DNA of 64,000 bases, taken from NCBI GenBank assembly GCA_030427835.1, contig JAUICN010000013.1, positions 16,663 to 80,662 on the forward strand, given 5' to 3'. Each line of letters begins with the position of its first letter. Positions within the stretch are counted from its first letter, which is position 1. Shown here piece by piece: positions 26,001-38,495 of the stretch. Below the pieces are notes generated by a model that was not told the DNA's origin, did not search any database, and worked only from the letters and a program-made list of their open reading frames with translations. This DNA is from Polyangia bacterium. Lineage in GTDB: Bacteria; Myxococcota_A; Polyangia; Polyangiales; JAUICN01. The position numbers and the translations under genes were made by a program.

Positions 26001-28019
26001 ACCCTGGCCGTTGCCATGAACCGCCTGGGAGCCCGATCCAACACGGGTGAAGGGGGCGAAGATCCAGAGCGCGCTACCCCAGGCCATCCGAAACGAAGTG
26101 CCATCAAGCAAATCGCTTCTGGCCGCTTTGGCGTTACGCCGGAATACCTCGCGTTTGCGGATGAAATCCAAATCAAGATCGCCCAGGGTGCCAAGCCAGG
26201 TGAGGGCGGACAGCTCCCGGGCCACAAGGTAGACGAGGTCATTGCACGCACACGTCACTCGGCGGTCGGGGTAACGCTCATCTCGCCGCCGCCGCACCAC
26301 GACATTTACTCCATTGAGGATCTGGCCCAGCTCATTACCGATTTGAAGGCCATCAACCCCAACGCCGACATTTCAGTAAAACTGGTGAGCGAAGCGGGGG
26401 TCGGTACCGTGGCGGCCGGTGTGGCCAAGGCGGGGGCCACGCAGATCGTGATCAGTGGCAACTCTGGTGGCACGGGCGCTTCACCGCTCAGTTCCATTCA
26501 ACACGTGGGCATGCCCTGGGAGTTGGGGCTCGCCGAAACCCACCAGACCCTGGTGGTCAACGGGCTGCGTGACCGGGTGACCCTAGAGACGGATGGTCAG
26601 CTGAAGACCGGGCGTGACGTGGTGGTGGCAGCCATTCTTGGGGCGGATTGCTTTGCCTTTGGCACGGCCGCCCTTGTAAGCGTGGGCTGCGTATTGATGC
26701 GGGCCTGCCACCTGAATACGTGCCCTGTGGGTGTGGCCACACAGGACCCCCAACTCCGGGCACGGTTCCAGGGCAAGCCCGAACACGTGGAACGCTTTAT
26801 GGGCTTTGTGGCAGAGCACGCACGGCACATCATGGCGGAACTGGGCGTGACCCGTTTTAGGGATCTGGTGGGTGCCACGGAGTTGTTGACCACGGCACAC
26901 ACCTCGGCACAGGCCGCTGGGCACTCCGCTGGGCACTCCGCTGGGCACTCCGCTGGGCACGGGAACACCCCGAACAGCCAGTCGAGGGCACCGCACCACA
27001 CGGACGGGCTCAATCTGGATCGTTTGCTGTACAAGCCTGAACAGATTCACGCCCAGCCTGACCTTGTACCCCAACGGCAGCCCGGCACCTCCGTCATGCC
27101 GCCCGAGCCACGGGTGAACCTTGAGGAGGCGTGGCTGTCCCAGTTGGACCATTTGCCCACCGACGTCGACAGGGTTTGGTCACTGGATGGGGAGATTCAC
27201 AACTGGGATCGCACGGTGGGTGCGCGGTTGTCCCATGCGCTTTTGGTTCACCCCGAGGGCAAGCGCATTCGTGAACGGGGCGTTCACATGCGGGCCCGTG
27301 GTTTTGCGGGCCAAAGCCTTGGGGCGTTCATGGTAGGGGGGCTTACGCTCGAGCTGGAGGGCTTCGCCAACGACGGCGTGGGCAAGGGCCTGGGTGGTGG
27401 TCAGATTGTGGTTCGTTTGCCGGAAGCCGCACCCATGGATTCACCGGAGGACGCCGTATTGGTGGGCAACGCCGCCCTGTACGGGGCCACCCGTGGCTCC
27501 CTGTTTGTGCAAGGAAGTGCCGGGGATCGATTTGCTGTACGCAACAGTGGCGCCACCGCTGTTGTTGAGGGCATGGGCGCCCACGGCTGCGAGTACATGA
27601 CGGGCGGTACCGTGGTGTGCCTGGGCGCCGTGGGGCCCAACTTTGGCGCCGGCATGACGGGCGGAGAAGCCTTCATTGTGGACTTGGATGGAAAGACGGA
27701 CCTGCGGATCAACCAGGAACATGTGCTGACCTCTCGCCTGGATTCAGTGGAATACTTCGGCACCTCACGGGAAGCGCCTGGGGAGCTGAATCAGGCTCTG
27801 CTCGAGCAAGCTCAGCAACGGCTCAAGGCACTCATCCAGTCCCATTTTGACATTACGGGCAGCGGCACATCCCAGCGACTGTTGGCCGGAGGTGACTTTG
27901 CCTGGAAGGACTTTATTTGGGTACGCCCCAAATCCCAGGGGGGACCAGCCACATCCACGACCCAGAGTCGACCTACCCCCCGTACCCACCTACCCACCCT
28001 GAATGCGGAGCGCCCATGA
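23100..28019 (+). CDS. gltB: Glutamate synthase large subunit
   Basis: HDNCGV, HQRFSTNTFP.W..AHP, EPWDGPA, AQVTNPPID, KQIASGRFGV, KIAQGAKPGEGGQLPG, CVLMRACHLNTCPVGVATQ, GXGXG domain. Start may be ATG 23133. Confidence 0.97.
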   Translation: MRRDKSVQQGSMVPPEVTLLSVAERAAAQGLYRPDMEHDNCGVASVTDIQGRPSHGLVAAGLNALERLAHRGATGADPLTGDGAGMLCQVPHLLLQGEVGSHLPGPGEYGLGMFFLNRDPWKERTQRRWLEGVFQALGLRVVAWRDVPVRADSCGPFAQQTRPSIAQAVVQPQKSLASGELERLLFVARKKIEHTQRQRRWVGKHDSLYVCSLSSSTVVYKGLLLPSQLGRFFPDLTDPRMESAVSVVHQRFSTNTFPAWERAHPYRLLAHNGEINTLSGNRKAMAARELLFASRRFGIDVELLRPLLEIESSDSAMLDNTAELLLQSGRSLPHALAMMLPRAWEQDPIMPPDVRGFYEYHASIMEPWDGPACVVFTDGRVSGVAVDRNGLRPARYLQTRQDWFVVSSEVGVMDVAPAELTRVGRLGPGEMVVVDTQRQRVRFDAEVKRELASLRPYAQWVQQALVRVGDLPTPRSQQTVSPARTTPLGTTQVGSTQLQSLPRAQRVFGYTREDVSTVLGAMAEQGKEPVGSMGRDTPPAVLSRKHPSLFDYFSQRFAQVTNPPIDPLRETNVMSLRTLLGPGHNLFQESPELCSHLELSSPVLDDSLFQKIRQIQHPEFRVTTVSTLFPARQQVGQLGRALADLCSRVEHLVRSGHTVLVLSDRGFHSGLAPMPSLLAASAVHHHLVRVRLRQRVGLVLESGEPREIMHVALLVGFGTDAVYPYLALDTVANLHTVSNLHTVSNLGRDGAGNTGAGNIGVGHAETAGPQGGHDAQQKYLRAVNLGLHKVLSRMGISTLQSYRGGQIFEALGLTQSFLNDFFPGVKSSIGGIGLEEVEATTLGRHRSAYDERKDPEVSGLEAGGRYKYRRDGEFHAYHPTTVGLLQDAVRRDRWDVFERFADVVDRENQSTTLRGLLRFKSPQGDRAMIGANPGPLDLDQVEPASEIIHRFRTGAMSYGSLSAEAHETLAVAMNRLGARSNTGEGGEDPERATPGHPKRSAIKQIASGRFGVTPEYLAFADEIQIKIAQGAKPGEGGQLPGHKVDEVIARTRHSAVGVTLISPPPHHDIYSIEDLAQLITDLKAINPNADISVKLVSEAGVGTVAAGVAKAGATQIVISGNSGGTGASPLSSIQHVGMPWELGLAETHQTLVVNGLRDRVTLETDGQLKTGRDVVVAAILGADCFAFGTAALVSVGCVLMRACHLNTCPVGVATQDPQLRARFQGKPEHVERFMGFVAEHARHIMAELGVTRFRDLVGATELLTTAHTSAQAAGHSAGHSAGHSAGHGNTPNSQSRAPHHTDGLNLDRLLYKPEQIHAQPDLVPQRQPGTSVMPPEPRVNLEEAWLSQLDHLPTDVDRVWSLDGEIHNWDRTVGARLSHALLVHPEGKRIRERGVHMRARGFAGQSLGAFMVGGLTLELEGFANDGVGKGLGGGQIVVRLPEAAPMDSPEDAVLVGNAALYGATRGSLFVQGSAGDRFAVRNSGATAVVEGMGAHGCEYMTGGTVVCLGAVGPNFGAGMTGGEAFIVDLDGKTDLRINQEHVLTSRLDSVEYFGTSREAPGELNQALLEQAQQRLKALIQSHFDITGSGTSQRLLAGGDFAWKDFIWVRPKSQGGPATSTTQSRPTPRTHLPTLNAERP
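25287..25376 (+). repeat. In-frame tandem repeats within gltB (18-bp x3, 15-bp x2)
   Basis: TVANLH-TVSNLH-TVSNLG (25287-25340) and GAGNT-GAGNI (25347-25376). Confidence 0.8.
26916..26960 (+). repeat. In-frame perfect 12-bp tandem repeat (3.75 copies) within gltB
   Basis: GCTGGGCACTCC x3 plus GCTGGGCAC, encoding (AGHS)3-AGH. Confidence 0.9.
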
Positions 28020-29488
28020 CACGCACCCCCGATGCTTTCCTACGGATTGACCGCACCGCACCACCCAAACGCCCGGTGGAGGAACGGATTAGGGATAGCC
28101 GCGAGGTGGACGCGTGCATGGAGCCGGCCGCCCTGCGCGAACAGGCCTCCCGCTGCATGGACTGTGGGATCCCCTTTTGCCATCAGGGTTGCCCACTTGG
28201 GAACCGTATTCCCGAGTGGAATGAACTGGTTTCGGAAGGCGATTGGAAACGGGCCCTGGATGAACTGCACGCCACCAACAACTTCCCGGAGTTCACGGGC
28301 AAGACCTGCCCCGCACCCTGCGAACAATCCTGCGTACTGAACATCGACGGTGAGCCGGTGAACATCAAGGCGGTGGAACGGCATATTGTCCAGCGGGGCT
28401 GGGCGGAGGGATGGATTCAACCCAAACCTTCCCAGATCACAACCGGACGACACGTGGGTGTTGTGGGTTCCGGCCCCGCGGGCCTCGCATGCGCGCAGCA
28501 ACTGGCGCGGGTGGGCCATCGGGTCACGGTGTACGAGAGAGACGATCGCGCGGGGGGCTTGCTTCGCTACGGAATCCCAGATTTCAAGCTTGAAAAAGTG
28601 GATGTGGAGCGACGGGTGCAGCAACTGCAGGCTGAGGGTGTGGACTTTCGCCTTGGAGTGGAAGTGGGCCGGGACATTACCGCCCAAGCGTTGATCACGG
28701 GTCACGATGCGCTGTGCCTTGCTGTGGGCGCGCAACAACCCAGGGAACTTCAGGTTCCAGGGATGGAACTCCAGGGCGTGCACTACGCCATGGACTATTT
28801 GACCCAACAGAATCGACGGGTTGCTGGAGACACCCTGCAAGAAGAGGGAACGGGTAGGAATTCACCCATCCATGCCTCTGGAAAACGCGTGGTGATTCTT
28901 GGGGGCGGTGACACGGGGGCCGACTGCCTGGGGACTGCCCACCGGCAGGGCGCGGCGGAAGTTCGACATTTTCATTACAAACCTGCCCCCCCTGAGTCCC
29001 GCACCGAAGACATGCCCTGGCCCTGGTGGCCCATGGTCGCACACCCCTCGAGCTCCCATGAGGAAGGGGGGATTCGCGGTTGGTCTGTGGTGACCAAGGG
29101 CTTTCGCGGTGAGAACGGCCAACTGACTCACATGGACCTGGCCCGCGTGCAGTGGGTGGAGGACGAAGGCAAGAACCTCATGCGCGAGGTGGAGCAGTTT
29201 TCCATCGAGGTGGACCTGGTACTCATCGCCGTGGGGTTTGAAGGCCCGGGTGCGGAATCGCTTTTGTCCGGGCTTGGTGTGTCGACTTCACCCAATGGGT
29301 TTCCCCAGACGGATGCGGGTTACCGCACCAGCCAGCCAGGGGTGTTTTGCTGCGGAGATGCCAGAAGGGGCGCGTCGCTCGTGGTGTGGGCGATTTGGGA
29401 GGGCCGTGAAACCGCGCGTACCATTGACGACTACCTCAATGGTGAGACGCGGCTGCCCACCCTTCCAAACCACTACCCTCTTTTGTGA
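28016..29488 (+). CDS. gltD: Glutamate synthase small subunit
   Basis: RCMDCGIPFCH.GCPL, NNFPEFTG..CPAPCE, VVGSGPAGL, GGGDTGADC, GD.RRG.SLVVWAI.EGR. ATGA overlap with gltB. Confidence 0.96.
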   Translation: MTRTPDAFLRIDRTAPPKRPVEERIRDSREVDACMEPAALREQASRCMDCGIPFCHQGCPLGNRIPEWNELVSEGDWKRALDELHATNNFPEFTGKTCPAPCEQSCVLNIDGEPVNIKAVERHIVQRGWAEGWIQPKPSQITTGRHVGVVGSGPAGLACAQQLARVGHRVTVYERDDRAGGLLRYGIPDFKLEKVDVERRVQQLQAEGVDFRLGVEVGRDITAQALITGHDALCLAVGAQQPRELQVPGMELQGVHYAMDYLTQQNRRVAGDTLQEEGTGRNSPIHASGKRVVILGGGDTGADCLGTAHRQGAAEVRHFHYKPAPPESRTEDMPWPWWPMVAHPSSSHEEGGIRGWSVVTKGFRGENGQLTHMDLARVQWVEDEGKNLMREVEQFSIEVDLVLIAVGFEGPGAESLLSGLGVSTSPNGFPQTDAGYRTSQPGVFCCGDARRGASLVVWAIWEGRETARTIDDYLNGETRLPTLPNHYPLL

Positions 29489-31800
29489 GCACTGAACCGT
29501 TTACGTCGGACCGCAAACAGGGCGGCCACAACCCAGAATGCGATCTGGGATGGAGCCGAAGGTGCTTGTTCGTTGCCTGCGGCTACCGTGCACCCGCCAC
29601 CACCAATGGCGCCCGCGGAAGGTACGGGTGTTCCCGCATCACCGTTGTTGGCACCGCCGTCTCCTGCACCGCCATCTCCCATGCCGGCATCACCCGTTCC
29701 ACCGTCCGCCATGCCGCTGTCGGGCATTCCGGCGTCCACCGGTTCGGTGGCGCATAGGTTGGAATCACAATGCATGCTCATGCAATCGCTGTCTGCAGAA
29801 CAGGCATCCCCGTTTGCACAGGTCGCACCGCAGGAACCACCACAGTCCACATCCGACTCGTCGCCATTTTGGACCATGTCCATGCACGTGGCCGCAAGGC
29901 AGGTGTCGGTCATTCCGGAGTCGCACACCAGGCTGATGCAATCGTTGTTGGATGCACAGTCCTCTCCCGTGTCGCAGGTGGATCCGCAGGAGCCACCGCA
30001 ATCCTCATCTGTCTCATCACCGTTTTGCACCATATCCCCACAGGTCGCCATGAGGCAGGTGTTTGTGGACATGGTGTCGCACACCATGCTCATGCAATCG
30101 CTGTTCATCACGCACATCATCCCGTCGGCACATGTGGAACAGATGGCACCGCCGCAATCCACGTCGGTCTCGTCCTGGTTCATGAACATGTCCACACAGG
30201 TGGCTGTGGCGCAGAGACCAGATGTGGTGTTGCAAAAGCCGCTATTGCACGCGCCGCTGTTGGTGCAGGATTCGCCGTCGTTCAACAGGCATGTGGCGGA
30301 GCAGGCTCCCCCTGGGCCGTTCTGAACACCGTCGTCACAGGATTCACCCATGTCGATGGTGCCGTTTCCACACTGGCTTGTGCCAAAGGTGAAAAACGCG
30401 TTGTCCGCAAAGTCCCCCATGTCGGTGCAATAGTCTGCGCCCACCACACTTAGGGGAAACTCCACCGTTCCGGTGGTAAAACTGGCGTCTGTGTTGTTCA
30501 CCAGCAGATGGGTCATGCCTGCGCTTGGTGGAATACAGACTTGAACCGCACCCACCGAACCCGTTTCGTTGATTTGCCACACGCGGCCCATCCGGTGCGA
30601 CGGGGTTCCCGTGTAGGCCACGTCCATGCTGGTGTTACCGTCGTTGTTTCCCCACATCATGAACGACAGGTCCGAGCCAAACGTTCCTGTGTTGGCTGCA
30701 TTGGTGGCGGCAATGTTTCCGAGGCCAATGGTGACGAGCCGATCCTCACTCGCGCTCCGTGCCTGTTTCTGTAGCACTTCACCGCCGTCGTCCCGTCCAA
30801 TACCTGCAATGTCGTTGTTGTAGGTGGTGTGCCCGAGCACATCCCAGAACACGGTGCTTGCGTCGCTGGCCACGTAATCCTGGGAAAGCGAAATGCCGTA
30901 TTTCAGTCCAAGATTGGCCTCTACCCGTGCCATCTCGGCCCCGTTCAGATCCCAGGAGAACACCAGAGCTTCGTGCAAGGTGCCATCGAAGTGGGTGTCG
31001 AAACCGCCGCCGCCCACGGCGCGCTTGGCGCCCACAACGATGTGGAATGGAATGAGGTCGGGTGCGAAATCCGAGTTTGCACTTGGGACCACCAGGGGTG
31101 ACCCGGGCACGCCATCCACCGCGGGTATGAATTGGCTGAGTAGGTCGCCATTGCTGTTGTCAAAGCGGTAGATGTGGGTTTCCGCGAGGGTCGCAGAAGC
31201 GGTCTTCGAGGCCCATTTGCCGTTGAAGGTGGGAGTGGGGCCTGAAACGTAGGCCGCGTGATGGTCACCCGGGTTGAGGCCGTCGGAATCTGTGGTGGAC
31301 CAACCGTAGGCAATGTTTCGCTGGTTGATGGGTGTGCTCCTCCCCAGGTACAGGGCAGAACCGCCGTTGGAGGATCCGGAAATAACAAAGAACGCTGTTT
31401 TTTCTGCTGTGCCATTGAGGCCTGGTGCGTTCACTCCCGTGGCACGTTCCAACCATTGGGCGGCGTCAAAACTCACACCAGGATTAAAGTTCAGGGAAGA
31501 ATCCACAAGGGAAGGTTCGTTGCCGCCAGTGGCGGTAAGGTGATTGCCATTGGCCGCCCGGTCGTTCCACGTGGTCACCGTTCCGCCCGGAGCGGTGATT
31601 CCCACGTCGGCGCTGTACCAGAGCTCCAGGTCCATCAGAACCCCACCGGGACCAAAAAGAGGTGCCACCTGGGCGCCCACTTCTTCGTGACCCCCGCCCT
31701 GCTTCGAAAGATTGCACCCCGTGACGGGCAGTAGGCCTGCACAGAGGGCCAAGCCCAGGGTCGTTGCAAAAACCGGCGTATGTGTTTGCTTGGTGTTCAT
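29473..31800 (-). CDS. MYXO-CTERM surface protein with LamG-like domain and Cys-rich repeats (TraA-like architecture)
   Basis: LELWYSAD..V.TWND..GNH (LamG-like), repeats TC.D.VQNGDE.D.DCGGSC..C, C-terminal GGGGCTV...FWVVAALFAVRRKR. Confidence 0.8.
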   Translation of the reverse strand: MNTKQTHTPVFATTLGLALCAGLLPVTGCNLSKQGGGHEEVGAQVAPLFGPGGVLMDLELWYSADVGITAPGGTVTTWNDRAANGNHLTATGGNEPSLVDSSLNFNPGVSFDAAQWLERATGVNAPGLNGTAEKTAFFVISGSSNGGSALYLGRSTPINQRNIAYGWSTTDSDGLNPGDHHAAYVSGPTPTFNGKWASKTASATLAETHIYRFDNSNGDLLSQFIPAVDGVPGSPLVVPSANSDFAPDLIPFHIVVGAKRAVGGGGFDTHFDGTLHEALVFSWDLNGAEMARVEANLGLKYGISLSQDYVASDASTVFWDVLGHTTYNNDIAGIGRDDGGEVLQKQARSASEDRLVTIGLGNIAATNAANTGTFGSDLSFMMWGNNDGNTSMDVAYTGTPSHRMGRVWQINETGSVGAVQVCIPPSAGMTHLLVNNTDASFTTGTVEFPLSVVGADYCTDMGDFADNAFFTFGTSQCGNGTIDMGESCDDGVQNGPGGACSATCLLNDGESCTNSGACNSGFCNTTSGLCATATCVDMFMNQDETDVDCGGAICSTCADGMMCVMNSDCMSMVCDTMSTNTCLMATCGDMVQNGDETDEDCGGSCGSTCDTGEDCASNNDCISLVCDSGMTDTCLAATCMDMVQNGDESDVDCGGSCGATCANGDACSADSDCMSMHCDSNLCATEPVDAGMPDSGMADGGTGDAGMGDGGAGDGGANNGDAGTPVPSAGAIGGGGCTVAAGNEQAPSAPSQIAFWVVAALFAVRRKRFSAHKRG

Positions 31801-31815
31801 GAGTTTGCTCCTTAG

Positions 31816-33705
31816 CTACCGCTGCGTCTTGGGACTGGTGAGTTGGGGTGTTTGGTTCTGCCTGCTTTCTTCGTGAACTGGGTTTTCCTCGTCCATCGGG
31901 TCGTCTTCCATGATCGTAAACTCCACACGGCGGTTCTGGGCGTGCTCCTCACGGGTGGAGGCGTTCTGTACCACGGGGCGATCGGGGCCGTAGCCATGGG
32001 CCACGAGGCGTCCGGCATCTACTCCACCCGTTTCCACCAGGTATTGCACCACGGATTCCGCGCGGGCCTGGGAAAGGGCAACGTTGCCATCGTGATCTCC
32101 GGTGGAGTCCGTATGCCCCTCCACACGAACGTGGGTGATTTCGCCGTGGGCGTTGAGCACCTTGGCGACGTTCACCAACAGGGGAAAGGAGCGTTGCTGA
32201 ATGTTGGCCCGGCCGGTCTGGAAGTACACCTTGTCCAGAATCTTGAGATGGCCAGCTTCCATTTGAACCAGCTGCTTCTCTAGGCACCCCATCTGTTCTG
32301 CGGTACCCGCCACGTCTGGGCAGTTGTCCAGACGATCGACCACACCATCGTTGTCACGATCGGTATCGGGGCAACCATGGTTTTCATGGGGGCCGACTTC
32401 CATGGGGCAACGGTCGTGGCTATCGACTACCCCGTCTTCGTCGTTGTCCAGATCAGGGCAACCGTCTTCGTCCTCAAAACCATCTCGGTCTTCGGGCTCC
32501 GCACGGCAACCGTCCCTGTCGTCGGGCACGCCGTCCATGTCGTCGTCGTTGTCCGGGCAACCATCTTCGTCGTTAACGCCATCCATGTCTTCCGCATCGT
32601 TCACGCAGGCATCGACCGAGTCCTCAATGCCGTCGCCATCGTTGTCCAGGTCAGGGCATCCGTCTTCGTCCTCAAAACCATCGATGTCCTCCGGAACGTC
32701 CACACAGGAGTCGTCGTCATCTCCCACGCCGTCGCCATCGGAATCGACCACAAACTTGATCGGGAGATCCGAGGTTTCACCCACGTAGGCCAGGGTGGCC
32801 ACTGCGCGGAATTGGGGTGTTCCGTAACCCCGTGTGATTCCCGGGCCGGCGGCTGCACCCACCACCAAGCCACTGTTGTGGTGGTACTTGGGGCCCACCA
32901 GCAGCTCGAGGGGGGATTCGGACCGTCCAAGCCAATCCTCGAAGTTCACTGCGCCAAACAGGTCGGCATGTACCCGAAGCGCATCCTCGTCCAGGAACCC
33001 CTGGGAAACTCCCAGGCCGTAGGTCATTTCGTGACCGTAGGTAAGGCTCCCGATTTCAAGGGCGCTGGGTCGAATGTGCGCGCCCAGGTTGGCGGCCCAG
33101 CGGAACCCACCGAAATTCCCTTCGGCCAGAAGCTCTGGTGCCAGGCCAAGGGTGGAGTCACCCGAGTACCGTTGGTCGCCATTGGTCCACTCTGCCGTGG
33201 GAAGAAAAACCGCAAGGGAGGCACCCAGGGCGAACGCTCCCCCAGCATGGCCGGCGAGTCGTACTCGGCCTCCAAAAAAGGCATCGCCCATTCCGAAGCC
33301 GTCAGCTCCAGCAATGCCCGCCAGCCCACTCACATCGTCACCGTCCATGAGCAGGTTCACGGGCAATCCCGCAAACACCATCACACGCTCATGCACGCCC
33401 ACCGAAATGTTGAGGTGCCCCGCCAACTGGTCGGATACGAGGGAGACATCCCCGCCACCCCCACCGGGTCGAAATACTAGCGGATTGCTGGAGTAATCCC
33501 CGTAGAGCTGTACATCCAGGCGCCCCACTTCACCCACATCGGGGCGACTCACCGCGAAACCGTCCGTGGCTAGCTCACTGGGCCGAAAACGGTTCAGGGT
33601 GGCAGAGTTGCTCTGGGCATGGGCGGATCCGGCAAACGTGGCCGCAACCACCACACCTAGCAGGCCCAAAAACGCAACACTTGAATTCGATGTACGATGA
33701 AACAT
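31816..33705 (-). CDS. OM beta-barrel + TSP3 Ca-binding repeats + OmpA C-terminal domain (TraB-like architecture)
   Basis: Signal ..AHA-QS, barrel-like N-terminus, many DGCPD.D.D.DG repeats, VRVEGHTD...LSQARA.SV..YL...QNRRVEF. Start revised to ATG 33705. Confidence 0.88.
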   Translation of the reverse strand: MFHRTSNSSVAFLGLLGVVVAATFAGSAHAQSNSATLNRFRPSELATDGFAVSRPDVGEVGRLDVQLYGDYSSNPLVFRPGGGGGDVSLVSDQLAGHLNISVGVHERVMVFAGLPVNLLMDGDDVSGLAGIAGADGFGMGDAFFGGRVRLAGHAGGAFALGASLAVFLPTAEWTNGDQRYSGDSTLGLAPELLAEGNFGGFRWAANLGAHIRPSALEIGSLTYGHEMTYGLGVSQGFLDEDALRVHADLFGAVNFEDWLGRSESPLELLVGPKYHHNSGLVVGAAAGPGITRGYGTPQFRAVATLAYVGETSDLPIKFVVDSDGDGVGDDDDSCVDVPEDIDGFEDEDGCPDLDNDGDGIEDSVDACVNDAEDMDGVNDEDGCPDNDDDMDGVPDDRDGCRAEPEDRDGFEDEDGCPDLDNDEDGVVDSHDRCPMEVGPHENHGCPDTDRDNDGVVDRLDNCPDVAGTAEQMGCLEKQLVQMEAGHLKILDKVYFQTGRANIQQRSFPLLVNVAKVLNAHGEITHVRVEGHTDSTGDHDGNVALSQARAESVVQYLVETGGVDAGRLVAHGYGPDRPVVQNASTREEHAQNRRVEFTIMEDDPMDEENPVHEESRQNQTPQLTSPKTQR

Positions 33706-33713
33706 GGCGCGGA

Positions 33714-33744
33714 ACGCTACCATGTCCCTCCGCGGGGGTGTCAA
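33714..33744 (-). promoter_or_regulatory. sigma70-type promoter candidate for the OmpA/TSP3 gene
   Basis: TTGACA (33744-33739), a long 19-nt spacer, and an extended -10 TGg-TAGCGT ending 8 nt before ATG 33705. Confidence 0.4.
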
Positions 33745-33785
33745 GCCGCCGGGCCGCATTGGAGCGCGCGACCCCGCATGCCTCG

Positions 33786-34868
33786 CTATTCAGTCGTTGC
33801 GGGTTCCGGGCTTTCCTCGGGCTGGGCAGGAACTTCGATACCCAGCACCGTGGGGACGTCCTCATCTACCTTTTTGGCAAGGGAGTTGGGGATGCTTACC
33901 CAGGCGTGGGTGGCCGGGGATCGGGCGTAGTACTCATCTCCCACACGCACCATTTCCACGGTACCCAGGGTATCCCCGTCGCCGTCCAGGTAGGTGAGTT
34001 GCACCACTGGGATGAGCTCGCCTGTGGAATCCACCAGGTTTTCACCAGGCTCCTGATCGGGGTTCAGGTACTCCTGCACACGCATTTGGTGCAGGGGGCT
34101 AACCCAGTTTCCAAAGAGTTCGTTGCGGCGGTCCGGGTCGCTTGCGTCCACCCATTGGGCACGGGCAGGGTCCCTGCGGTCACGCTGAAGTAGGGTTCGG
34201 GAGGCGCCCTGGGCCTCCACCTTGAGCTTCTCCACCTCAGTCACGTCGAACCCAAGGATGTCGCGCTGCATCAGCCGATGCTTCGCAGACTTCAACTGGT
34301 TGATGATGTCGCCTGCCACCAGGTACACGGTTTGGGAGGCCTTTGGGGCCGATGGCTTTTCGGTGCCCTGGAAGGGGCTGATGTAGCGGGCGGGGGAACC
34401 AAAGGCCGTGGCACCCACGGTGTACTTCACCGCGGCTTTTCCGCAGTTGAACTCAAGTGTCTCCTTGGAATCCTGCAGGCCCAGGTCCTCGAGCAGTTCT
34501 GGTTCCACCTGCCCTAGGGATCGCAATGCCATCATGGGCGACAACATGGCGATGTATTCCTGGGCGTCCTTACCTGCCACAAAGGTGGAAGATTTTGCGG
34601 CTTGCGCCTGCTCCGGAGCTCCGTCGTTCTTCTTTGGAGTGTCATCGACCTGCACCCAGAGCACGCGCCCGTCACCTTCGCCCTTCGCGTGGAGCCGTAC
34701 ATTCTGGGTTTCAGAAGAAAGCGTGGCCGAAACAAAAGAGGATTCCTTGCATTCGAAGATTTCCACGGCCTCTGCGGGTGTCTCTTCGGCATCTTCCTTG
34801 GTCCAGGCCCACCAGGCGGAAGCAAGACCCACGATGGCCAGTAGGGAATGGGTGACGATGGTCTTCAT
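33786..34868 (-). CDS. DUF4340 domain protein
   Basis: N-terminal TM, VG....G..RY.......YLV....L...R.ILGF..VE.L.V pattern; 4-bp overlap with the upstream gene. Confidence 0.7.
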   Translation of the reverse strand: MKTIVTHSLLAIVGLASAWWAWTKEDAEETPAEAVEIFECKESSFVSATLSSETQNVRLHAKGEGDGRVLWVQVDDTPKKNDGAPEQAQAAKSSTFVAGKDAQEYIAMLSPMMALRSLGQVEPELLEDLGLQDSKETLEFNCGKAAVKYTVGATAFGSPARYISPFQGTEKPSAPKASQTVYLVAGDIINQLKSAKHRLMQRDILGFDVTEVEKLKVEAQGASRTLLQRDRRDPARAQWVDASDPDRRNELFGNWVSPLHQMRVQEYLNPDQEPGENLVDSTGELIPVVQLTYLDGDGDTLGTVEMVRVGDEYYARSPATHAWVSIPNSLAKKVDEDVPTVLGIEVPAQPEESPEPATTE

Positions 34869-36790
34869 GACTGCACTCCTTGTTCGGTGTCTCCCTCAAC
34901 AACAGGAGCTTGTGCCGGGGGCGGTGTACCAGGCCCAGATTTCGGTCCCGAACGGCGCTTGCGACGGCGGGTGCCGGCCCAAAGCCCAAGGGCAAATAGT
35001 GGAAGTGGGGCGCCAAAGGTGGTGATCCAGAACCAGGCCTTGTCCTCATCCTTGGTGTGCTCAATGCGAACGTCTTCCTCAGAGTTGGTCTCGCCCACGA
35101 TCTGTTCTTCGCCCAGCATCCACTGGAGCATGTCCCCGAACACCAGGACGTTGCCTGGGTTACGCACCACCTGGTCGGTCACGAAATCACCATCCGAAAT
35201 GATGAGCGCACGGCCTTCCTCTTCCGCGGGCTTGCCTGCCACAGGAACGCTTACCGCGGCCACCATGTTGTACTGCTTCAACTCTTCGGTTTCTCCCCGT
35301 TGGAAATCACCGTCCAAGTCCAACCAGCAGGGGGCCACGGTGCGTACCGGGAATACAACGTTGCTTCCTTCGAGCACGCCCTCGCCCTCGTACTTGGACA
35401 AGGCACCTCCTCGAAGAAAGATGGTTGCAAGCTGATTCGAGTTGCGGCTGGCCATGGTCACTGTGGGGTGGGCCGAGTAGTTGTTGGTCCGTACAATGGT
35501 TCGGTCGGAGAGGTTGAAGTTCCGGCGAATGAAGTACCGGTCGCTGGTCAGCACGCCCGACTCCAGTTTCACCCCAAGGGCCTGAAACAGGGGTGTGAGC
35601 CCATGATCCACATCCGGGTCCACCATGACCACGAGGCGACCGCCCTGTTGCACGTAGCGCAGTAGGGCCTGGGTTTCTTCAGGCAAGAAGGGCTTGCGGG
35701 GGCCAAGCACGGACACCAATGGAATGCCCTTGGGGACGTCATTGCCCAATCCCTGGGTCAACCCCAGTTCGCGGGTGGTGATGTTGCTGCGTTCAAGCAG
35801 GGTTCGTAGTTCACTGATGCGCAGTTCGGGGCCATCCCCTTCCACGCCCGTGCGGGAACGTTCGTCGTGGCCAATGGTCAGGTGCAGCTCCCGCCGTTGA
35901 CGTGTGAGCTTCATGAAGCTTTCCTGGAAGCGACCGTCCAGGGTGCGCAGTTTGCTGCGTGCCTCTTCCAGGTCCGTTCCAACCGCGAATTTTTCCACCT
36001 GTTGGCTATCACCCTCACCCTTGAATAGGGCAATGGTTCCGTTTTCCCGGATCTGATGTTTGCGGGTCAGCTTTGGGGCCAGGGCGTGGTCCCGTACGCG
36101 AAACTCCACGTGGGAGGAAGCCTTATCCACCGCCGCAAAGTAGGGCTTCAGTTGGGAGAGCACCTCGTTTGCCTTGGGAAAGAACAGCACGATCTCGATG
36201 GGTTCGCCCAGGGCCTCCACCATGTCGAGCGTACCTTCGCTTGGCCGGGTGGTTTTGAAGTAGCTCATGTCCTTTCGGACATCCTGCTTGGCGGTGGCGT
36301 AGTTGACCCCAAGCACAAACACCATGGACAGGGCGATGGTCAGCCCGTCCAAACCGGCAGAACGGATTCGGCGAATCTCCACCGCCTGGGCCACGGGCAT
36401 GCGGGCGTAGGCAAGTTCCATGAACTTGAGCGCCCCCCCCGCGGCCACGAAGACCACGGGCCAAAGCACAGCCAACACCGCTGGGATACGGCTTTCCGTA
36501 TTTCCGTTGAGGCCCAGGAGGGTCAGCCCCCATTCGGTGCTCATCACGTAGAGGCCAAGGGCCACAAACACGCCGCCGTAGGCCAGCAGCAGAATGCCTT
36601 CCACCGGCTTTTGGGCCGCCCCCGCGGAACCCAAACGGGTGATGCGCCATACCAGGGCACCCAGGATCGCCGCCGTTGCAAGCCACGTCACCACGCTTTG
36701 GGTGGTGCCCTCAGAAAGGACCTGACGCGCCACAAATAGCAGCGAAACGCCGAGGCCAAGCAAGAAACTAATCCACTTACTCATTGCCAC
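34865..36790 (-). CDS. GldG-like ABC auxiliary component
   Basis: N-terminal TMs, .D.SYF.T..PS..T, GHDE, V.GP..PFL.EE..AL.RY...GGRL.V.VDP, SDGDF, C-terminal TM. Confidence 0.75.
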   Translation of the reverse strand: MAMSKWISFLLGLGVSLLFVARQVLSEGTTQSVVTWLATAAILGALVWRITRLGSAGAAQKPVEGILLLAYGGVFVALGLYVMSTEWGLTLLGLNGNTESRIPAVLAVLWPVVFVAAGGALKFMELAYARMPVAQAVEIRRIRSAGLDGLTIALSMVFVLGVNYATAKQDVRKDMSYFKTTRPSEGTLDMVEALGEPIEIVLFFPKANEVLSQLKPYFAAVDKASSHVEFRVRDHALAPKLTRKHQIRENGTIALFKGEGDSQQVEKFAVGTDLEEARSKLRTLDGRFQESFMKLTRQRRELHLTIGHDERSRTGVEGDGPELRISELRTLLERSNITTRELGLTQGLGNDVPKGIPLVSVLGPRKPFLPEETQALLRYVQQGGRLVVMVDPDVDHGLTPLFQALGVKLESGVLTSDRYFIRRNFNLSDRTIVRTNNYSAHPTVTMASRNSNQLATIFLRGGALSKYEGEGVLEGSNVVFPVRTVAPCWLDLDGDFQRGETEELKQYNMVAAVSVPVAGKPAEEEGRALIISDGDFVTDQVVRNPGNVLVFGDMLQWMLGEEQIVGETNSEEDVRIEHTKDEDKAWFWITTFGAPLPLFALGLWAGTRRRKRRSGPKSGPGTPPPAQAPVVEGDTEQGVQS

Positions 36791-37506
36791 CTCTGACTCT
36801 TCAACACGCGGGTCGATGCCAACAGCATCAGGTACACAAGCGTTACAAAGAACACCACATCACTGAGCTGCAGTAGTCCCCGCCGGAAGGGTTGAAAATG
36901 ATTGTAGAACGGGGAGAAGTACTCAAAAATACTCGCCCAGGAACCTTCGCTGATCCGCGCGACCCACCAGCAGATCTCCAGCAGCGCCGCGAACATGCCC
37001 GCAAGAAGCACCGCCAAAAACGGGTGCTTTGCAAGGGAAGAGGCAAACATTCCCACCGCCAGGGTGGAACCACCGAGGAAGAGCAGCCCCAGGTACCCCG
37101 AGGCGATGTGCCCGTAGGACACCTTACCGTTCACGAAAATCAGGGCGGGCAGGTACAGGCTCAGTAGGATCACCACCGATAGGAATACAAAGGATGCCAG
37201 GTACTTCCCCACCACGATTTCGCCCTCTCGAATGGGAGAAGTGAAAAGCAGGGTCTGGGTGCCGTTGCTGCGTTCCTCGGCGAGCAGGCGCATGGAAAAC
37301 AGCACGCCGCTCACAATCGTGGTTCCCCCGGCCACCTCAAAGAAGCGCAAGAGCACATCGGTGGAGAGGCTGGGTTCGGATCCCACGGCGTAGGCGTTGA
37401 AGGTGATGCCCTGCCAAAGCAGCATCACACCCGCAATGATGTAACCCGCGGGAGTGCGCAGGTACGCCGCAAGCTCCCGACGGACGATGAGCCCAATACT
37501 TTTCAC
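36781..37506 (-). CDS. GldF-like ABC-2 permease
   Basis: IVRREL.AY..TP.GY, SMRLLAEER..GT..LL.TSP...IV.GKY.A, D.VFF. Confidence 0.85.
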   Translation of the reverse strand: MKSIGLIVRRELAAYLRTPAGYIIAGVMLLWQGITFNAYAVGSEPSLSTDVLLRFFEVAGGTTIVSGVLFSMRLLAEERSNGTQTLLFTSPIREGEIVVGKYLASFVFLSVVILLSLYLPALIFVNGKVSYGHIASGYLGLLFLGGSTLAVGMFASSLAKHPFLAVLLAGMFAALLEICWWVARISEGSWASIFEYFSPFYNHFQPFRRGLLQLSDVVFFVTLVYLMLLASTRVLKSQRWQ

Positions 37507-38495
37507 GCTTCACCTCCTGCAGCTGCGTTCCCAGGGCTTGTGTGGCCAGGGGTGGCGGCGCCCGTCTGGGATCCGCCCTTGCTCAACTGCACAAAAATTT
37601 GTTCCAGACCGGTGGCCTCGCGCTCCAGGGAAAGCAGACCCAGGTCTGCAGAAACAATCGATTTGGCCATCTGCTCGCGAACGTCCTCGGCGGTGCGCAC
37701 CACCACGTGCTGTAGGGAATCGGTGCCTCCCTGGAACTGCACGTCCACCACGCCGGGTACGGACTGCAGCACACTCTGCAGGGCGCTACGTTCACCCCGG
37801 GCGGACAACTTGATGGTGACCCCGGTTCCCAGTTTTTCTGCCAGTTGGGCTTCTGTGCCCTGGGCTGCGAGCTGGCCCTGGTGAAGCATGAGAATGCGGT
37901 CACAGGTCTGTTCGATCTCAGAAAGAATGTGACTGCTCAGTAGAATGGTGTGCTTGCCACGCAGCGCCCGAATCATCTCACGCATTTCCACGATTTGAAC
38001 CGGGTCCAAACCGTTGATGGGCTCATCCAGGATGAGCAGGTCGGGGTCGTGCACAATGGCCTGGCCGATTCCAACCCGCTGCCGGTAACCGTGGGACAGG
38101 CTGTGAATGGGCTGCTGGGCCACGTCCGTGAGGCCACAGGTATCCATTACCTCTGGCAATCGTTTTTGGATGGCACTGTTTTCCATTTTTCGGAGTCGGC
38201 CGGCAAAGGTGAGGTAGTCCGCCACGTTCATCTCTGGGTAGAGCGGGGGCTGATCAGGAAGAAAACCGATAAACTTTCGGATTTCGTGGGGGTCGGTCTC
38301 CACGTCCAGTCCCCGAACGGTGACTTTTCCGGAGGTGGGCAACAGCAAACAGCTGAGCAACCGAAGGGTCGTGGTCTTTCCTGCGCCGTTCAGGCCCAAA
38401 AACCCAACGCATTCGCCTTCTTGGATTTCAAAATCCAAATCCCGAATCGCGGGCGTGTTGCCGTAATACTTGGTGACGTGCTCGACTCGAATCAT
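37503..38495 (-). CDS. GldA-like ABC ATP-binding protein
   Basis: GLNGAGKTT, LSHGYRQRVGI.QA, LILDEP..GLDP.QI.E.R..I, SSHIL.E. Confidence 0.92.
   Translation of the reverse strand: MIRVEHVTKYYGNTPAIRDLDFEIQEGECVGFLGLNGAGKTTTLRLLSCLLLPTSGKVTVRGLDVETDPHEIRKFIGFLPDQPPLYPEMNVADYLTFAGRLRKMENSAIQKRLPEVMDTCGLTDVAQQPIHSLSHGYRQRVGIGQAIVHDPDLLILDEPINGLDPVQIVEMREMIRALRGKHTILLSSHILSEIEQTCDRILMLHQGQLAAQGTEAQLAEKLGTGVTIKLSARGERSALQSVLQSVPGVVDVQFQGGTDSLQHVVVRTAEDVREQMAKSIVSADLGLLSLEREATGLEQIFVQLSKGGSQTGAATPGHTSPGNAAAGGEA

What the first reader, a model, noticed from the sequence alone, without database searches (positions are those of the whole stretch)
29473..33705. TraB-like porin/OmpA gene paired with a TraA-like MYXO-CTERM adhesin, in reversed order and with a different head domain
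Seen: adjacent co-oriented genes 15 bp apart. The first is barrel + TSP3 + OmpA. The second has a lipobox-like VTGC, a LamG-like head, a module (LGLKYGISL..DY...YNNDIAGIGRDD...KQARS) that I associate with large Bacteroidota surface proteins, Cys-rich repeats and a MYXO-CTERM. Established: Myxococcus TraA (variable head, Cys-rich stalk, MYXO-CTERM) and TraB (barrel, TSP3, OmpA) mediate kin recognition and outer-membrane exchange, in the order traA-traB. Inference: a non-canonical TraAB-like adhesion or recognition pair with a swapped lectin-like head and possibly two anchors.
Basis: partly seen in the sequence, partly recalled or inferred. Interest (0 to 1): 0.65.

Follow-up and report, generated by a model that had tools for sequence, protein, structure and literature searches.

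The report
TraAB-style surface adhesin and anchor pair
Two coupled genes of an uncultured myxobacterium encode an outer-membrane barrel/cell-wall anchor of the TraB protein family and a cysteine-rich, tag-sorted surface protein with a lectin-like head; the pair copies the design of the known TraA/TraB cell-contact system but is not orthologous to it, and it belongs to a widespread pairing that the literature has barely described.

Summary
Two minus-strand genes lie 15 bp apart, and the second has a strong ribosome-binding site.

**Gene 1 (31816-33759)**
- Signal peptide, 12-strand beta-barrel, about 9 calcium-binding TSP3 motifs, and an OmpA peptidoglycan-binding domain.
- It is homologous to TraB over its whole length. 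It scores 235 bits against a 700-bit cut-off, and an AU test excludes it from the TraB clade (p 4e-5).

**Gene 2 (29473-31800)**
- Lipobox, ConA/LamG-like head, a module otherwise found mainly in Bacteroidota T9SS proteins, four Cys-rich units, and a MYXO-CTERM-type tag.
- It matches none of the three TraA models.
- The genome has no traAB orthologue. It does have myxosortase MrtC and a T2SS secretin.

**The pairing**
- The kind of pairing is conserved.
- 17 of 57 family members sampled from same-order genomes have a same-strand adjacent Cys-rich MYXO-CTERM gene, in either order (about 26-fold enrichment). Four more are in-frame fusions.
- In gene 1's own clade, 7 of 10 members are paired.
- Anchors are conserved while partner heads vary.

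**Reading**
- Most likely this is a cell-wall-tethered surface adhesin or receptor complex built like TraAB.
- Membrane exchange is neither shown nor excluded.
- It is a new variant of a known kind, of moderate interest.

The parts
31816..33759 (-). Gene 1 (P0001): TraB-family outer-membrane protein. Likely start at 33723 or 33705.
   Evidence: ORF. NCBIfam TraB model 235 bits; Pfam OmpA and TSP_3. Public call of 635 aa.
33616..33705 (-). Type I signal peptide of gene 1 (MFHR...AGSAHA|Q)
   Evidence: Read directly from the sequence. The same AxAQ site pattern occurs in other exported proteins of this genome. Helix 7-24 of the model.
32782..33519 (-). 12-strand beta-barrel (P0001 residues about 81-326)
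   Evidence: AF2 model, strands 63-308 in model numbering. Foldseek matches FapF (5O68) and the COG4313 channel (4RL8), TM 0.69. 26% identity to the barrel of Myxococcus TraB, E 7e-21.
32320..32745 (-). TSP3-type calcium-binding repeat region (residues 339-480; 5 long and 4 short motifs, with paired Cys)
   Evidence: Regex count. Pfam TSP_3. 39-40% identity to the solved TSP3+OmpA periplasmic part of Capnocytophaga OmpA, 5WTL, E 9e-22.
31933..32226 (-). OmpA-like peptidoglycan-binding domain (residues 512-609)
   Evidence: Pfam PF00691, 70 bits. Motif TDSTGDHDGNVALSQARAESV. Invariant D/N/L/S/R/A columns in the family alignment.
31808..31813 (-). Shine-Dalgarno AAGGAG for gene 2, inside the 15-bp intergenic gap
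   Evidence: Sequence read.
29473..31800 (-). Gene 2 (P0002): Cys-rich surface protein with a lectin-like head and a C-terminal sorting tag
   Evidence: ORF. Homologues. AF2 model.
31714..31800 (-). Lipoprotein-type signal peptide with lipobox VTGC (Cys29)
   Evidence: Pattern match. It is the only one among the 11 tag-bearing proteins of this genome.
30946..31665 (-). ConA/LamG-like jelly-roll head (residues about 46-285), starting with the PGGV...LxxW..AD signature
   Evidence: AF2 pLDDT about 90. Foldseek matches lectin-type jelly rolls, E 1e-5 to 3e-7. Consensus of 40 homologues.
30376..30945 (-). Second head module (residues 286-475) with the LGLKYGISL...NDIAGIGRDD...KQARS signature. PF26628 is the only family on record for this protein, but its boundaries were not mapped here.
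   Evidence: Precomputed Pfam PF26628 for this protein and its homologues. pLDDT 92-97. Nearly invariant columns E277 Y296 L297 K300 Y301 G302 G333 D337 Q344 S347.
29752..30372 (-). Cys-rich stalk: one DUF4215-like unit plus three 52-aa repeats (C.D...N.DE[ST]D.DCGG...), 32 Cys
   Evidence: The same repeat type occurs in many proteins of this genome and order.
29476..29610 (-). MYXO-CTERM-like tripartite tag (GGGGC, spacer, hydrophobic helix, RRKR), preceded by a Gly/Asp-rich linker
   Evidence: Order-specific tail profile: rank 4 of 14,136, E 3.9e-4. Weak match to the C-terminus of a myxosortase-dependent family. No TIGR03901 hit.

Best explanation
The two genes form an operon for a two-component envelope device built like TraA/TraB but paralogous to it.

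**Gene 1.** It gives an outer-membrane 12-strand barrel. Its periplasmic TSP3 calcium-binding linker and OmpA-like domain tie it to peptidoglycan.

**Gene 2.**
- It is exported by Sec. Its C-terminal Cys tag is lipidated and cut by the genome's MrtC myxosortase, and the type II secretion system takes it to the cell surface.
- A disulfide-stiffened stalk then holds out a ConA/LamG-type lectin-like head.
- The protein probably also carries an N-terminal lipoprotein anchor.

**Joint function.** The barrel protein serves as the cell-wall-tethered partner of the surface protein, so that force on the adhesin is carried to the sacculus. The likely role is adhesion to, or recognition of, a glycan-bearing surface (substrate, prey or other cells).

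**Shown:** domain make-up, homology, non-orthology to TraAB, conservation and fusion of this kind of pair, and presence of MrtC and GspD.

**Inferred:** physical interaction, surface display, both lipidations, and the ligand.
For: **Coupling within the window**
- The gap is 15 bp, with a strong SD before gene 2.

**Full-length homology of gene 1 to TraB, same architecture**
-.

**Conservation of the pairing**
- 17 of 57 barrel-bearing family members in 55 loci from same-order genomes have a same-strand adjacent Cys-rich MYXO-CTERM gene, several with 4-bp overlaps.
- Enrichment: 16 partners in 114 flanking slots against about 5 in about 810 other genes, odds ratio 26, p 1e-11.
- Four in-frame fusions were found, in both orders.
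- In gene 1's starred clade, 7 of 10 members are paired.
- The cultured Sandaracinus amylolyticus has the same anchor-then-partner layout.
- In this genome the closest paralogue (C22:305187-307082) is followed by two Cys-rich tagged genes. Five of the six best tag matches lie within 3 kb of a barrel paralogue.

**Sorting machinery in this genome**
- MrtC scores 200 bits, at or above its 195-bit cut-off.
- The GspD secretin scores 489 bits.

**Lectin-like fold of the head**
-.

**Literature**
- TraB is a barrel+TSP3+OmpA protein, and AlphaFold places the base of TraA on the TraB barrel. TraB anchors TraA dimers to peptidoglycan (PMC12045341).
- The fused MXAN_5598 has been noted as TraA+TraB-like (PMC11980579).
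Against: - There is no direct evidence of interaction, expression or surface display.
- Two of the three best metagenomic homologue loci examined lack a partner gene, and about 60% of sampled family members are unpaired. The barrel family can therefore work alone.
- The tag misses the curated TIGR03901 model.
- No relative has this head beside its anchor.
- The stalk could not be modelled.
- The lipobox rests on a pattern match only.
- My MYXO-CTERM detector for relatives is a regular expression applied to longest ORFs, so the counts are approximate.
Confidence: 0.6

Rival explanations
1. The pair is a genuine outer-membrane-exchange or kin-recognition system. Homotypic binding of the heads on neighbouring cells, anchored through gene 1, would trigger membrane fusion and exchange, as TraAB does.
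For: The two-protein architecture is the same, and gene 1 is homologous to TraB. Partner heads vary while anchors are conserved, which is the pattern expected of a recognition receptor. The genome lacks canonical traAB, so a substitute is conceivable.
Against: - Gene 1 lies outside the TraB clade.
- Gene 2 has no TraA N-terminal domain and no TIGR04201 repeats.
- Homologues of the head are monomeric-looking lectin modules of T9SS proteins, mostly from Bacteroidota.
- No alleles are available to test for polymorphism.
- A short 20-aa N-terminal lipid tether would hold the head close to its own membrane, which fits poorly with head-to-head bridging.
- Myxobacteria with reduced genomes are reported to lack OME genes (PMC6372800).
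Confidence: 0.08
2. The barrel is a dedicated outer-membrane export or insertion pore for its neighbour, in the manner of FapF or a two-partner system, and not merely an anchor.
For: The barrel's closest solved folds are the 12-strand polypeptide channel FapF and the COG4313 channel. In this small genome most tag-bearing genes lie near a barrel paralogue. Gene fusions also occur.
Against: For TraAB, each protein reaches the outer membrane without the other (PMC12045341). MYXO-CTERM proteins use the T2SS (PMC11980579), and this genome has a GspD secretin. Many tagged proteins in relatives have no adjacent barrel, and many barrels have no partner.
Confidence: 0.1
3. The two genes are merely neighbours: a general OmpA-type envelope-integrity protein, perhaps belonging to the upstream GldAFG-like ABC operon, and an unrelated surface protein.
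For: Gene 1 follows a GldA/GldF/GldG-like ABC transporter and a DUF4340 gene on the same strand, with only a 26-80 bp gap. The family is large, with 1-16 copies per genome, and most copies are unpaired.
Against: The ABC genes are not next to any orthologue examined. The adjacency to Cys-rich tagged genes is enriched about 26-fold, includes fusions and 4-bp overlaps, and recurs in this genome.
Confidence: 0.15

Closest known systems
TraA/TraB outer-membrane exchange pair of Myxococcus xanthus (NCBIfam NF033759 / NF033763)
   Same: - It is a two-gene unit.
- One product is a signal peptide + beta-barrel + TSP3 + OmpA protein, homologous to gene 1 over its full length (26% identity in the barrel, 46% in TSP3/OmpA).
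- The other is a surface protein with a variable head, a Cys-rich stalk and a C-terminal Cys sorting tag.
   Different: - Gene 1 scores 235 bits (cut-off 700) and lies in another clade. It has about 9 TSP3 motifs, more than the few visible in the TraB alignment.
- Gene 2 has a ConA/LamG + PF26628 head where TraA has its PA14-like domain.
- Its stalk is built of 52-aa repeats, not TIGR04201 repeats.
- It has a lipobox where TraA has a type I signal peptide.
- The gene order is anchor first, with a 15-bp gap and no 4-bp overlap.
MXAN_5598-type fused adhesin / internal MYXO-CTERM / barrel-OmpA proteins (noted in PMC11980579)
   Same: The same association of a tagged adhesin with a TraB-family barrel/OmpA protein. 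Fused versions occur among the relatives sampled here: L068, L063, L072 and L078.
   Different: Here there are two separate genes, in the opposite order, and the head is different.
OmpA of Capnocytophaga gingivalis, periplasmic TSP3 + OmpA-like part (PDB 5WTL)
   Same: 39-40% identity and the best structural match to the TSP3 + OmpA region of gene 1. The TSP3 repeats are calcium-binding with an intra-repeat disulfide.
   Different: The barrel of gene 1 is a 12-strand FapF/COG4313-like barrel of the TraB family, and the gene is coupled to a tagged surface protein.
T9SS-sorted surface proteins, mostly of Bacteroidota, with an N-terminal LamG-like domain and PF26628
   Same: The head of gene 2 (residues 45-480) is 25-44% identical to them. 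It shares the PGGV...WLKAD start and the IAGIGRDD...QKQS signature.
   Different: Those proteins end in a T9SS C-terminal domain and have almost no Cys. Gene 2 carries a myxobacterial Cys-rich stalk and a MYXO-CTERM-like tag. Only one of 60 same-order genomes has a comparable head, at 30% identity.

Membership tests
TraB (NCBIfam NF033763, exchanger_TraB) | Score at or above the curated cut-off of 700 bits | tested here: not met
   235 bits. A genuine orthologue in G176 scores 611 bits, and one in G270 scores 550 bits.
TraB (NCBIfam NF033763, exchanger_TraB) | Placement inside the clade of named TraB proteins | tested here: not met
   The TraB clade has 100% SH-aLRT support on a stem of 1.18, and P0001 sits in another 99% clade. 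The AU test of P0001+TraB as one clade gives delta lnL 73, p 3.9e-5.
TraB (NCBIfam NF033763, exchanger_TraB) | Architecture: signal peptide, OM beta-barrel, TSP3 repeats, OmpA-like domain | tested here: met
TraB (NCBIfam NF033763, exchanger_TraB) | Encoded directly downstream of, and overlapping, a traA orthologue | tested here: not met
   Gene 1 is upstream of its partner with a 15-bp gap. There is no TraA orthologue in the genome: the best hit is 21.7 bits against a 750-bit cut-off.
TraB (NCBIfam NF033763, exchanger_TraB) | Required for outer-membrane exchange | not testable with these tools
   This needs genetics and transfer assays.
TraA (NCBIfam NF033759; TIGR04566 N-terminal domain; TIGR04201 Cys repeat) | Match to the TraA full-length model, the PA14-like N-terminal domain model and the TIGR04201 repeat | tested here: not met
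   P0002 gives no hit even at E up to 10. The control TraA from G176 hits all three models, at 587, 221 and 42 bits. Pairwise BLASTP finds only a marginal Cys-pattern match, E 0.004.
TraA (NCBIfam NF033759; TIGR04566 N-terminal domain; TIGR04201 Cys repeat) | Polymorphic variable domain among alleles | not testable with these tools
   No close relative of P0002 exists in the collections searched.
MYXO-CTERM sorting domain (TIGR03901) and myxosortase system | Match to TIGR03901 at its 20-bit cut-off | tested here: not met
   The tail alone gives no hit at E up to 1. A partner in a relative reaches 17.7 bits.
MYXO-CTERM sorting domain (TIGR03901) and myxosortase system | Tripartite tag at the extreme C-terminus: Gly/Cys motif, hydrophobic helix, Arg/Lys cluster | tested here: met
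   The sequence reads GGGGC...IAFWVVAALFAV RRKR. A profile of 18 partner tails from relatives ranks it 4th of 14,136, E 3.9e-4.
MYXO-CTERM sorting domain (TIGR03901) and myxosortase system | Cognate myxosortase and T2SS present in the genome | tested here: met
   MrtC scores 200 bits against a 195-bit cut-off, at C30:48879-49718. GspD scores 489 bits against a 351-bit cut-off.
OmpA-like peptidoglycan-binding domain (PF00691) | Pfam score over the gathering threshold, and the PG-binding motif | tested here: met
   70.2 bits against 27.2. Motif at residue 550. Structural matches at rmsd 1-2 A.
Bacterial lipoprotein (Lgt/LspA substrate) | Lipobox [LVI][ASTVI][GAS]C at the end of an N-terminal hydrophobic region | tested here: inconclusive
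   VTGC with Cys29 follows a 19-residue hydrophobic region. No dedicated predictor or experiment was available.
PF26628 head-module family (mostly Bacteroidota surface proteins) | Pfam assignment and the shared sequence signature | tested here: met
   PF26628 is precomputed for P0002 and for 40 of the 41 homologues. The signature is conserved in the alignment. The model is absent from the local Pfam copy.

The most novel reading that the evidence does not exclude
Barrel-TSP3-OmpA genes coupled or fused to Cys-rich MYXO-CTERM genes may form a general platform of a conserved anchor plus a swappable surface receptor in Polyangia, with TraAB as only one specialised branch. On this reading, the pair here, with a Bacteroidota-type lectin head and two lipid anchors, would mediate contact-dependent recognition and perhaps membrane fusion or exchange with a different specificity. 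It would do so in a reduced genome that has lost canonical traAB.
Probability: 0.1. Interest if true: 0.8.

Novelty: new variant of a known kind. Interest (0 to 1): 0.45.

Why it matters
TraA/TraB is the only studied example of a myxobacterial surface receptor working with a barrel/OmpA partner. It underlies kin recognition and membrane sharing.

The data here show that the same two-part design recurs many times in Polyangia. The anchors are conserved and the heads are very different (lectin-like, NIDO, NHL, Ig-like, DUF4215). The design appears as separate genes in either order and as single fused genes.

This suggests a general way of tying tag-sorted surface proteins to the cell wall. It also offers a set of natural 'head swaps' for asking which features of TraAB are needed for adhesion and which for membrane fusion.

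The cultured Sandaracinus amylolyticus carries a pair of the same clade, so the idea can be tested at the bench.

The chimeric make-up of gene 2 is also a clear case of domain shuffling between two different surface-sorting systems: a head otherwise found mostly in Bacteroidota T9SS proteins sits on a myxobacterial stalk and tag.

Tried and rejected
- **GC3-based gene caller.** My caller for the 20-kb loci mis-called gene 1 itself: the antisense ORF 32377-33480 looks more 'coding'. I switched to homology-anchored ORFs plus a tag regular expression, so counts in relatives are approximate.
- **Close relatives of gene 2.** The search for related loci in genome contigs found none. No protein above 53% identity to gene 1 exists in the 5.8-billion-protein set. 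Allelic variation of the head and strict orthologous synteny therefore could not be tested.
- **PF26628.** It is not in the local Pfam library, so its name and boundaries come only from precomputed labels.
- **Solved structures.** A sequence search with the head profile hit only the T9SS tails of homologues.
- **Stalk and tag of gene 2.** They were not modelled with confidence (pLDDT below 50), so no structural comparison with the TraA stalk was possible.
- **Recent horizontal transfer of the head.** There is no compositional signal: GC3 is 0.68-0.69, like the rest of the gene.
- **Sigma-54 promoter before gene 2.** Reading the sequence shows only about 6 of 10 consensus positions, and a strong SD is present instead. 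Rejected.
- **Link to the upstream GldAFG-like ABC genes.** It is not conserved in any orthologous locus.
- **Phylum-wide TraB search.** The search with the TraB model scored only 4 candidates per genome and returned just two TraB-like loci. Named TraB sequences were taken from the protein search instead.


Full report
**What is there**

The window lies on contig C23 of a 3.3-Mb genome that is 98% complete and about 60% G+C. The nearest named homologues of gene 1 come from Sandaracinaceae and other Myxococcota.

On the minus strand, ORF 31816-33759 (P0001, up to 647 aa) is followed after 15 bp by ORF 29473-31800 (P0002, 775 aa). AAGGAG sits 7 nt before the ATG of P0002, so the two genes are almost certainly co-transcribed. 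The 3' end of P0002 overlaps the convergent gltD by 16 bp.

Upstream on the same strand lie a DUF4340 gene and GldG-, GldF- and GldA-like ABC transporter genes. None of these genes is found next to the orthologues of P0001 in other genomes.

**Gene 1**

- P0001 matches Pfam OmpA (70 bits) and TSP_3 (26 bits).
- Its best NCBIfam match is the TraB model, at 235 bits against a curated cut-off of 700. The match comes in two stretches that together span the model.
- An AlphaFold2 model built on 52 homologues (pLDDT 86.7) shows a signal-peptide helix, a 12-strand beta-barrel, an irregular Asp/Cys-rich region and an OmpA-like domain.
- By Foldseek, the TSP3+OmpA part is 39-40% identical to the solved periplasmic part of Capnocytophaga OmpA (5WTL). 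The barrel resembles the 12-strand channels FapF and COG4313, TM 0.69.
- The sequence has five long and four short TSP3 calcium-binding motifs, and the peptidoglycan-binding motif TD...N..LS..RA..V.
- Against a named Myxococcus TraB, the barrel is 26% identical (E 7e-21) and the TSP3/OmpA part 46% identical (E 4e-40). Homology therefore extends over the whole protein.

**Gene 2**

*Signal peptide.* P0002 starts with a hydrophobic signal region that ends in the lipobox VTGC (Cys29). It is the only one of 11 tag-bearing proteins of this genome with a lipobox. The others have AxAQ type I sites.

*Head.* Residues 45-480 have homologues at 25-44% identity. The named ones come almost entirely from Bacteroidota. 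Most end in T9SS sorting domains and carry the precomputed family PF26628, with or without a LamG family label. Their mature N-termini begin with the same PGGV...WLKAD motif. The model of this region is confident. Its fold matches concanavalin-A/LamG-type lectin modules: the trans-sialidase lectin domain, a pilin lectin module, a phage tailspike, and receptor-binding jelly rolls. Only one of 60 same-order genomes has a comparable head, at 30% identity on a 1.9-kb contig.

*Stalk.* Residues 477-683 hold 32 Cys in one DUF4215-like unit and three 52-aa repeats. This repeat type is common in this genome and order.

*Tag.* After a Gly/Asp-rich linker the protein ends in GGGGC, a 14-residue spacer, a hydrophobic helix and RRKR.
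- The tail misses the curated TIGR03901 model.
- A profile built only from 18 partner tails of relatives ranks it 4th among 14,136 ORF tails of this genome, E 3.9e-4.
- The genome encodes myxosortase MrtC above its curated cut-off and a GspD secretin. Together these are the published route for MYXO-CTERM proteins (PMC11980579; 10.1101/2023.06.07.544157).

**Is it TraAB?**

No.
- A genuine traAB operon from a same-class genome served as a positive control (L055: TraA of 710 aa with 71 Cys, overlapping TraB by 4 bases). It scores 587 bits (TraA), 221 bits (TraA N-terminal domain), 42 bits (TIGR04201 repeat) and 611 bits (TraB).
- P0002 hits none of the TraA models even at E up to 10. It shows only a marginal Cys-pattern match to that TraA, E 0.004.
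- In a 70-sequence tree, named TraB proteins plus the two Polyangia TraB-like proteins form one clade with 100% support on a long stem. P0001 lies in a different 99% clade.
- An AU test rejects uniting P0001 with TraB: delta lnL 73, p 3.9e-5.
- The genome has no TraA orthologue (best 21.7 bits) and no TraB orthologue.

**Is the pairing real?**

Yes, as a kind of pairing.
- *Family size.* The barrel-TSP3-OmpA family has 1-16 hits per genome in 60 of 61 same-order genomes. More than 3,400 database proteins match at E below 1e-60.
- *Frequency.* I fetched 17-20 kb around 57 barrel-bearing members from relatives. Seventeen have a same-strand adjacent gene for a Cys-rich protein ending in a MYXO-CTERM-type tag. 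The partner may be downstream or upstream, and five pairs show 4-bp overlaps.
- *Fusions.* Four more members are in-frame fusions. In three, an adhesin with an internal tag and an internal signal peptide is followed by the barrel. In the fourth, the barrel-OmpA part comes first and a Cys-rich tagged protein follows.
- *Enrichment.* Within the same 976 kb, tagged genes fill 16 of 114 flanking slots but only about 5 of about 810 other genes (odds ratio 26, p 1e-11).
- *Gene 1's clade.* Seven of 10 members are paired, five with the partner downstream as here. Even sister sequences differ in gene order.
- *A cultured example.* Independent public gene calls show the same layout in Sandaracinus amylolyticus. 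An anchor 48% identical to P0001 is overlapped by a 1165-aa, 87-Cys gene with a clear MYXO-CTERM. Two other close homologue loci have no partner.
- *This genome.* The closest paralogue (39% identity) is followed by two small Cys-rich tagged genes. Five of the six best tag matches lie within 3 kb of a barrel paralogue.
- *Anchors against partners.* Within the clade, anchors are 38-69% identical over about 90% of their length. Partners often share only stalk repeats. Partner heads across the sample include DUF4215, NIDO, NHL, Big_13, Dicty_CTDC and Dickkopf-like domains.

**How it most likely works**

By analogy with TraAB, the partner would be displayed on the surface by its lipidated C-terminal Cys and probably also by its N-terminal lipid. 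In TraAB, TraB is the barrel+TSP3+OmpA protein, AlphaFold places the base of TraA on the TraB barrel, and the OmpA domain restrains the complex on peptidoglycan (PMC12045341). The barrel protein here would likewise couple the partner to the sacculus. The head looks like a carbohydrate-binding module, so adhesion to a glycan-bearing surface is the simplest role.

All of this is inference. What is shown is the anatomy, the homology, the recurrent coupling and fusion, and the presence of the sorting machinery.

Three rivals remain open at lower odds:
- an exchange or kin-recognition system;
- a FapF-like private export pore;
- mere neighbours.

**Novelty**

The papers I could search describe TraAB orthologues (PMC3325183, PMC6372800) and give one paragraph on the fused MXAN_5598 (PMC11980579). 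I found no description of a family-wide pairing, and searches for 'TraAB-like', 'TraA-like', 'TraB-like' and 'TraB paralog' returned only conjugation papers.

Earlier unchecked notes of this scan report similar pairs and fusions in at least 14 other genomes. That agrees with my counts, and it makes this locus one more example and not a singular find.

The particular features of this locus are:
- a head otherwise found mostly in Bacteroidota;
- a lipobox combined with a C-terminal tag;
- an expanded TSP3 region;
- a host genome that lacks traAB.

Noticed in passing
window 33786-38495 (minus strand): Directly upstream of gene 1 lie a GldA-like ABC ATPase, a GldF-like permease, a GldG-like auxiliary protein and a DUF4340 protein, with overlapping stops and starts. 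This looks like a gliding-type ABC transporter set in a myxobacterium. It is not adjacent to orthologues of gene 1 elsewhere.
   Followed up: partly
G000 C22:305187-311665: A second locus of the same kind in this genome. A barrel-TSP3-OmpA paralogue (39% identity) is followed by two tandem small Cys-rich genes (about 250 aa each) with near-identical MYXO-CTERM-like tails. A third, convergent barrel-OmpA paralogue follows them.
   Followed up: partly
G000 C3:69410-95404: A cluster of at least eight large genes (539-1252 aa) is built from the same 50-aa Cys-rich repeats as the stalk of gene 2. My tag pattern did not flag them as MYXO-CTERM proteins.
   Followed up: no
L068 (G044:C1), L063 (G037:C1), L072 (G013:C5), L078 (G036:C2): These are in-frame fusions of a tagged adhesin and a barrel-OmpA protein. 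Three carry an internal MYXO-CTERM followed at once by a signal-peptide-like segment. One has the opposite order, barrel-OmpA first and then a 187-Cys tagged protein.
   Followed up: partly
G000 C30:48879-49718 and C30:53905-55098: The myxosortase MrtC gene lies about 4 kb from a barrel-less TSP3+OmpA paralogue (397 aa, 48% identical to the C-terminal half of gene 1).
   Followed up: no
window 32377-33480 (+): A 367-aa antisense ORF inside gene 1 has a more 'coding-like' GC3 profile (0.67/0.43/0.75) than gene 1 itself (0.72/0.43/0.68). It is a shadow ORF that misleads composition-based gene calling in this Asp/Gly-rich gene.
   Followed up: partly
window 29473-29488: The stop-proximal 16 bp of gene 2 overlap the 3' end of the convergent glutamate synthase small-subunit gene (27917-29488). 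No terminator-like hairpin lies between them.
   Followed up: no
P0001 residues about 50-80; family alignment A3: A conserved N-terminal segment, LN.FRP.E...D.F..SRP, precedes the first barrel strand and is shared with TraB proteins. It is modelled with high confidence but without regular secondary structure, and it might be a plug or a docking segment.
   Followed up: no
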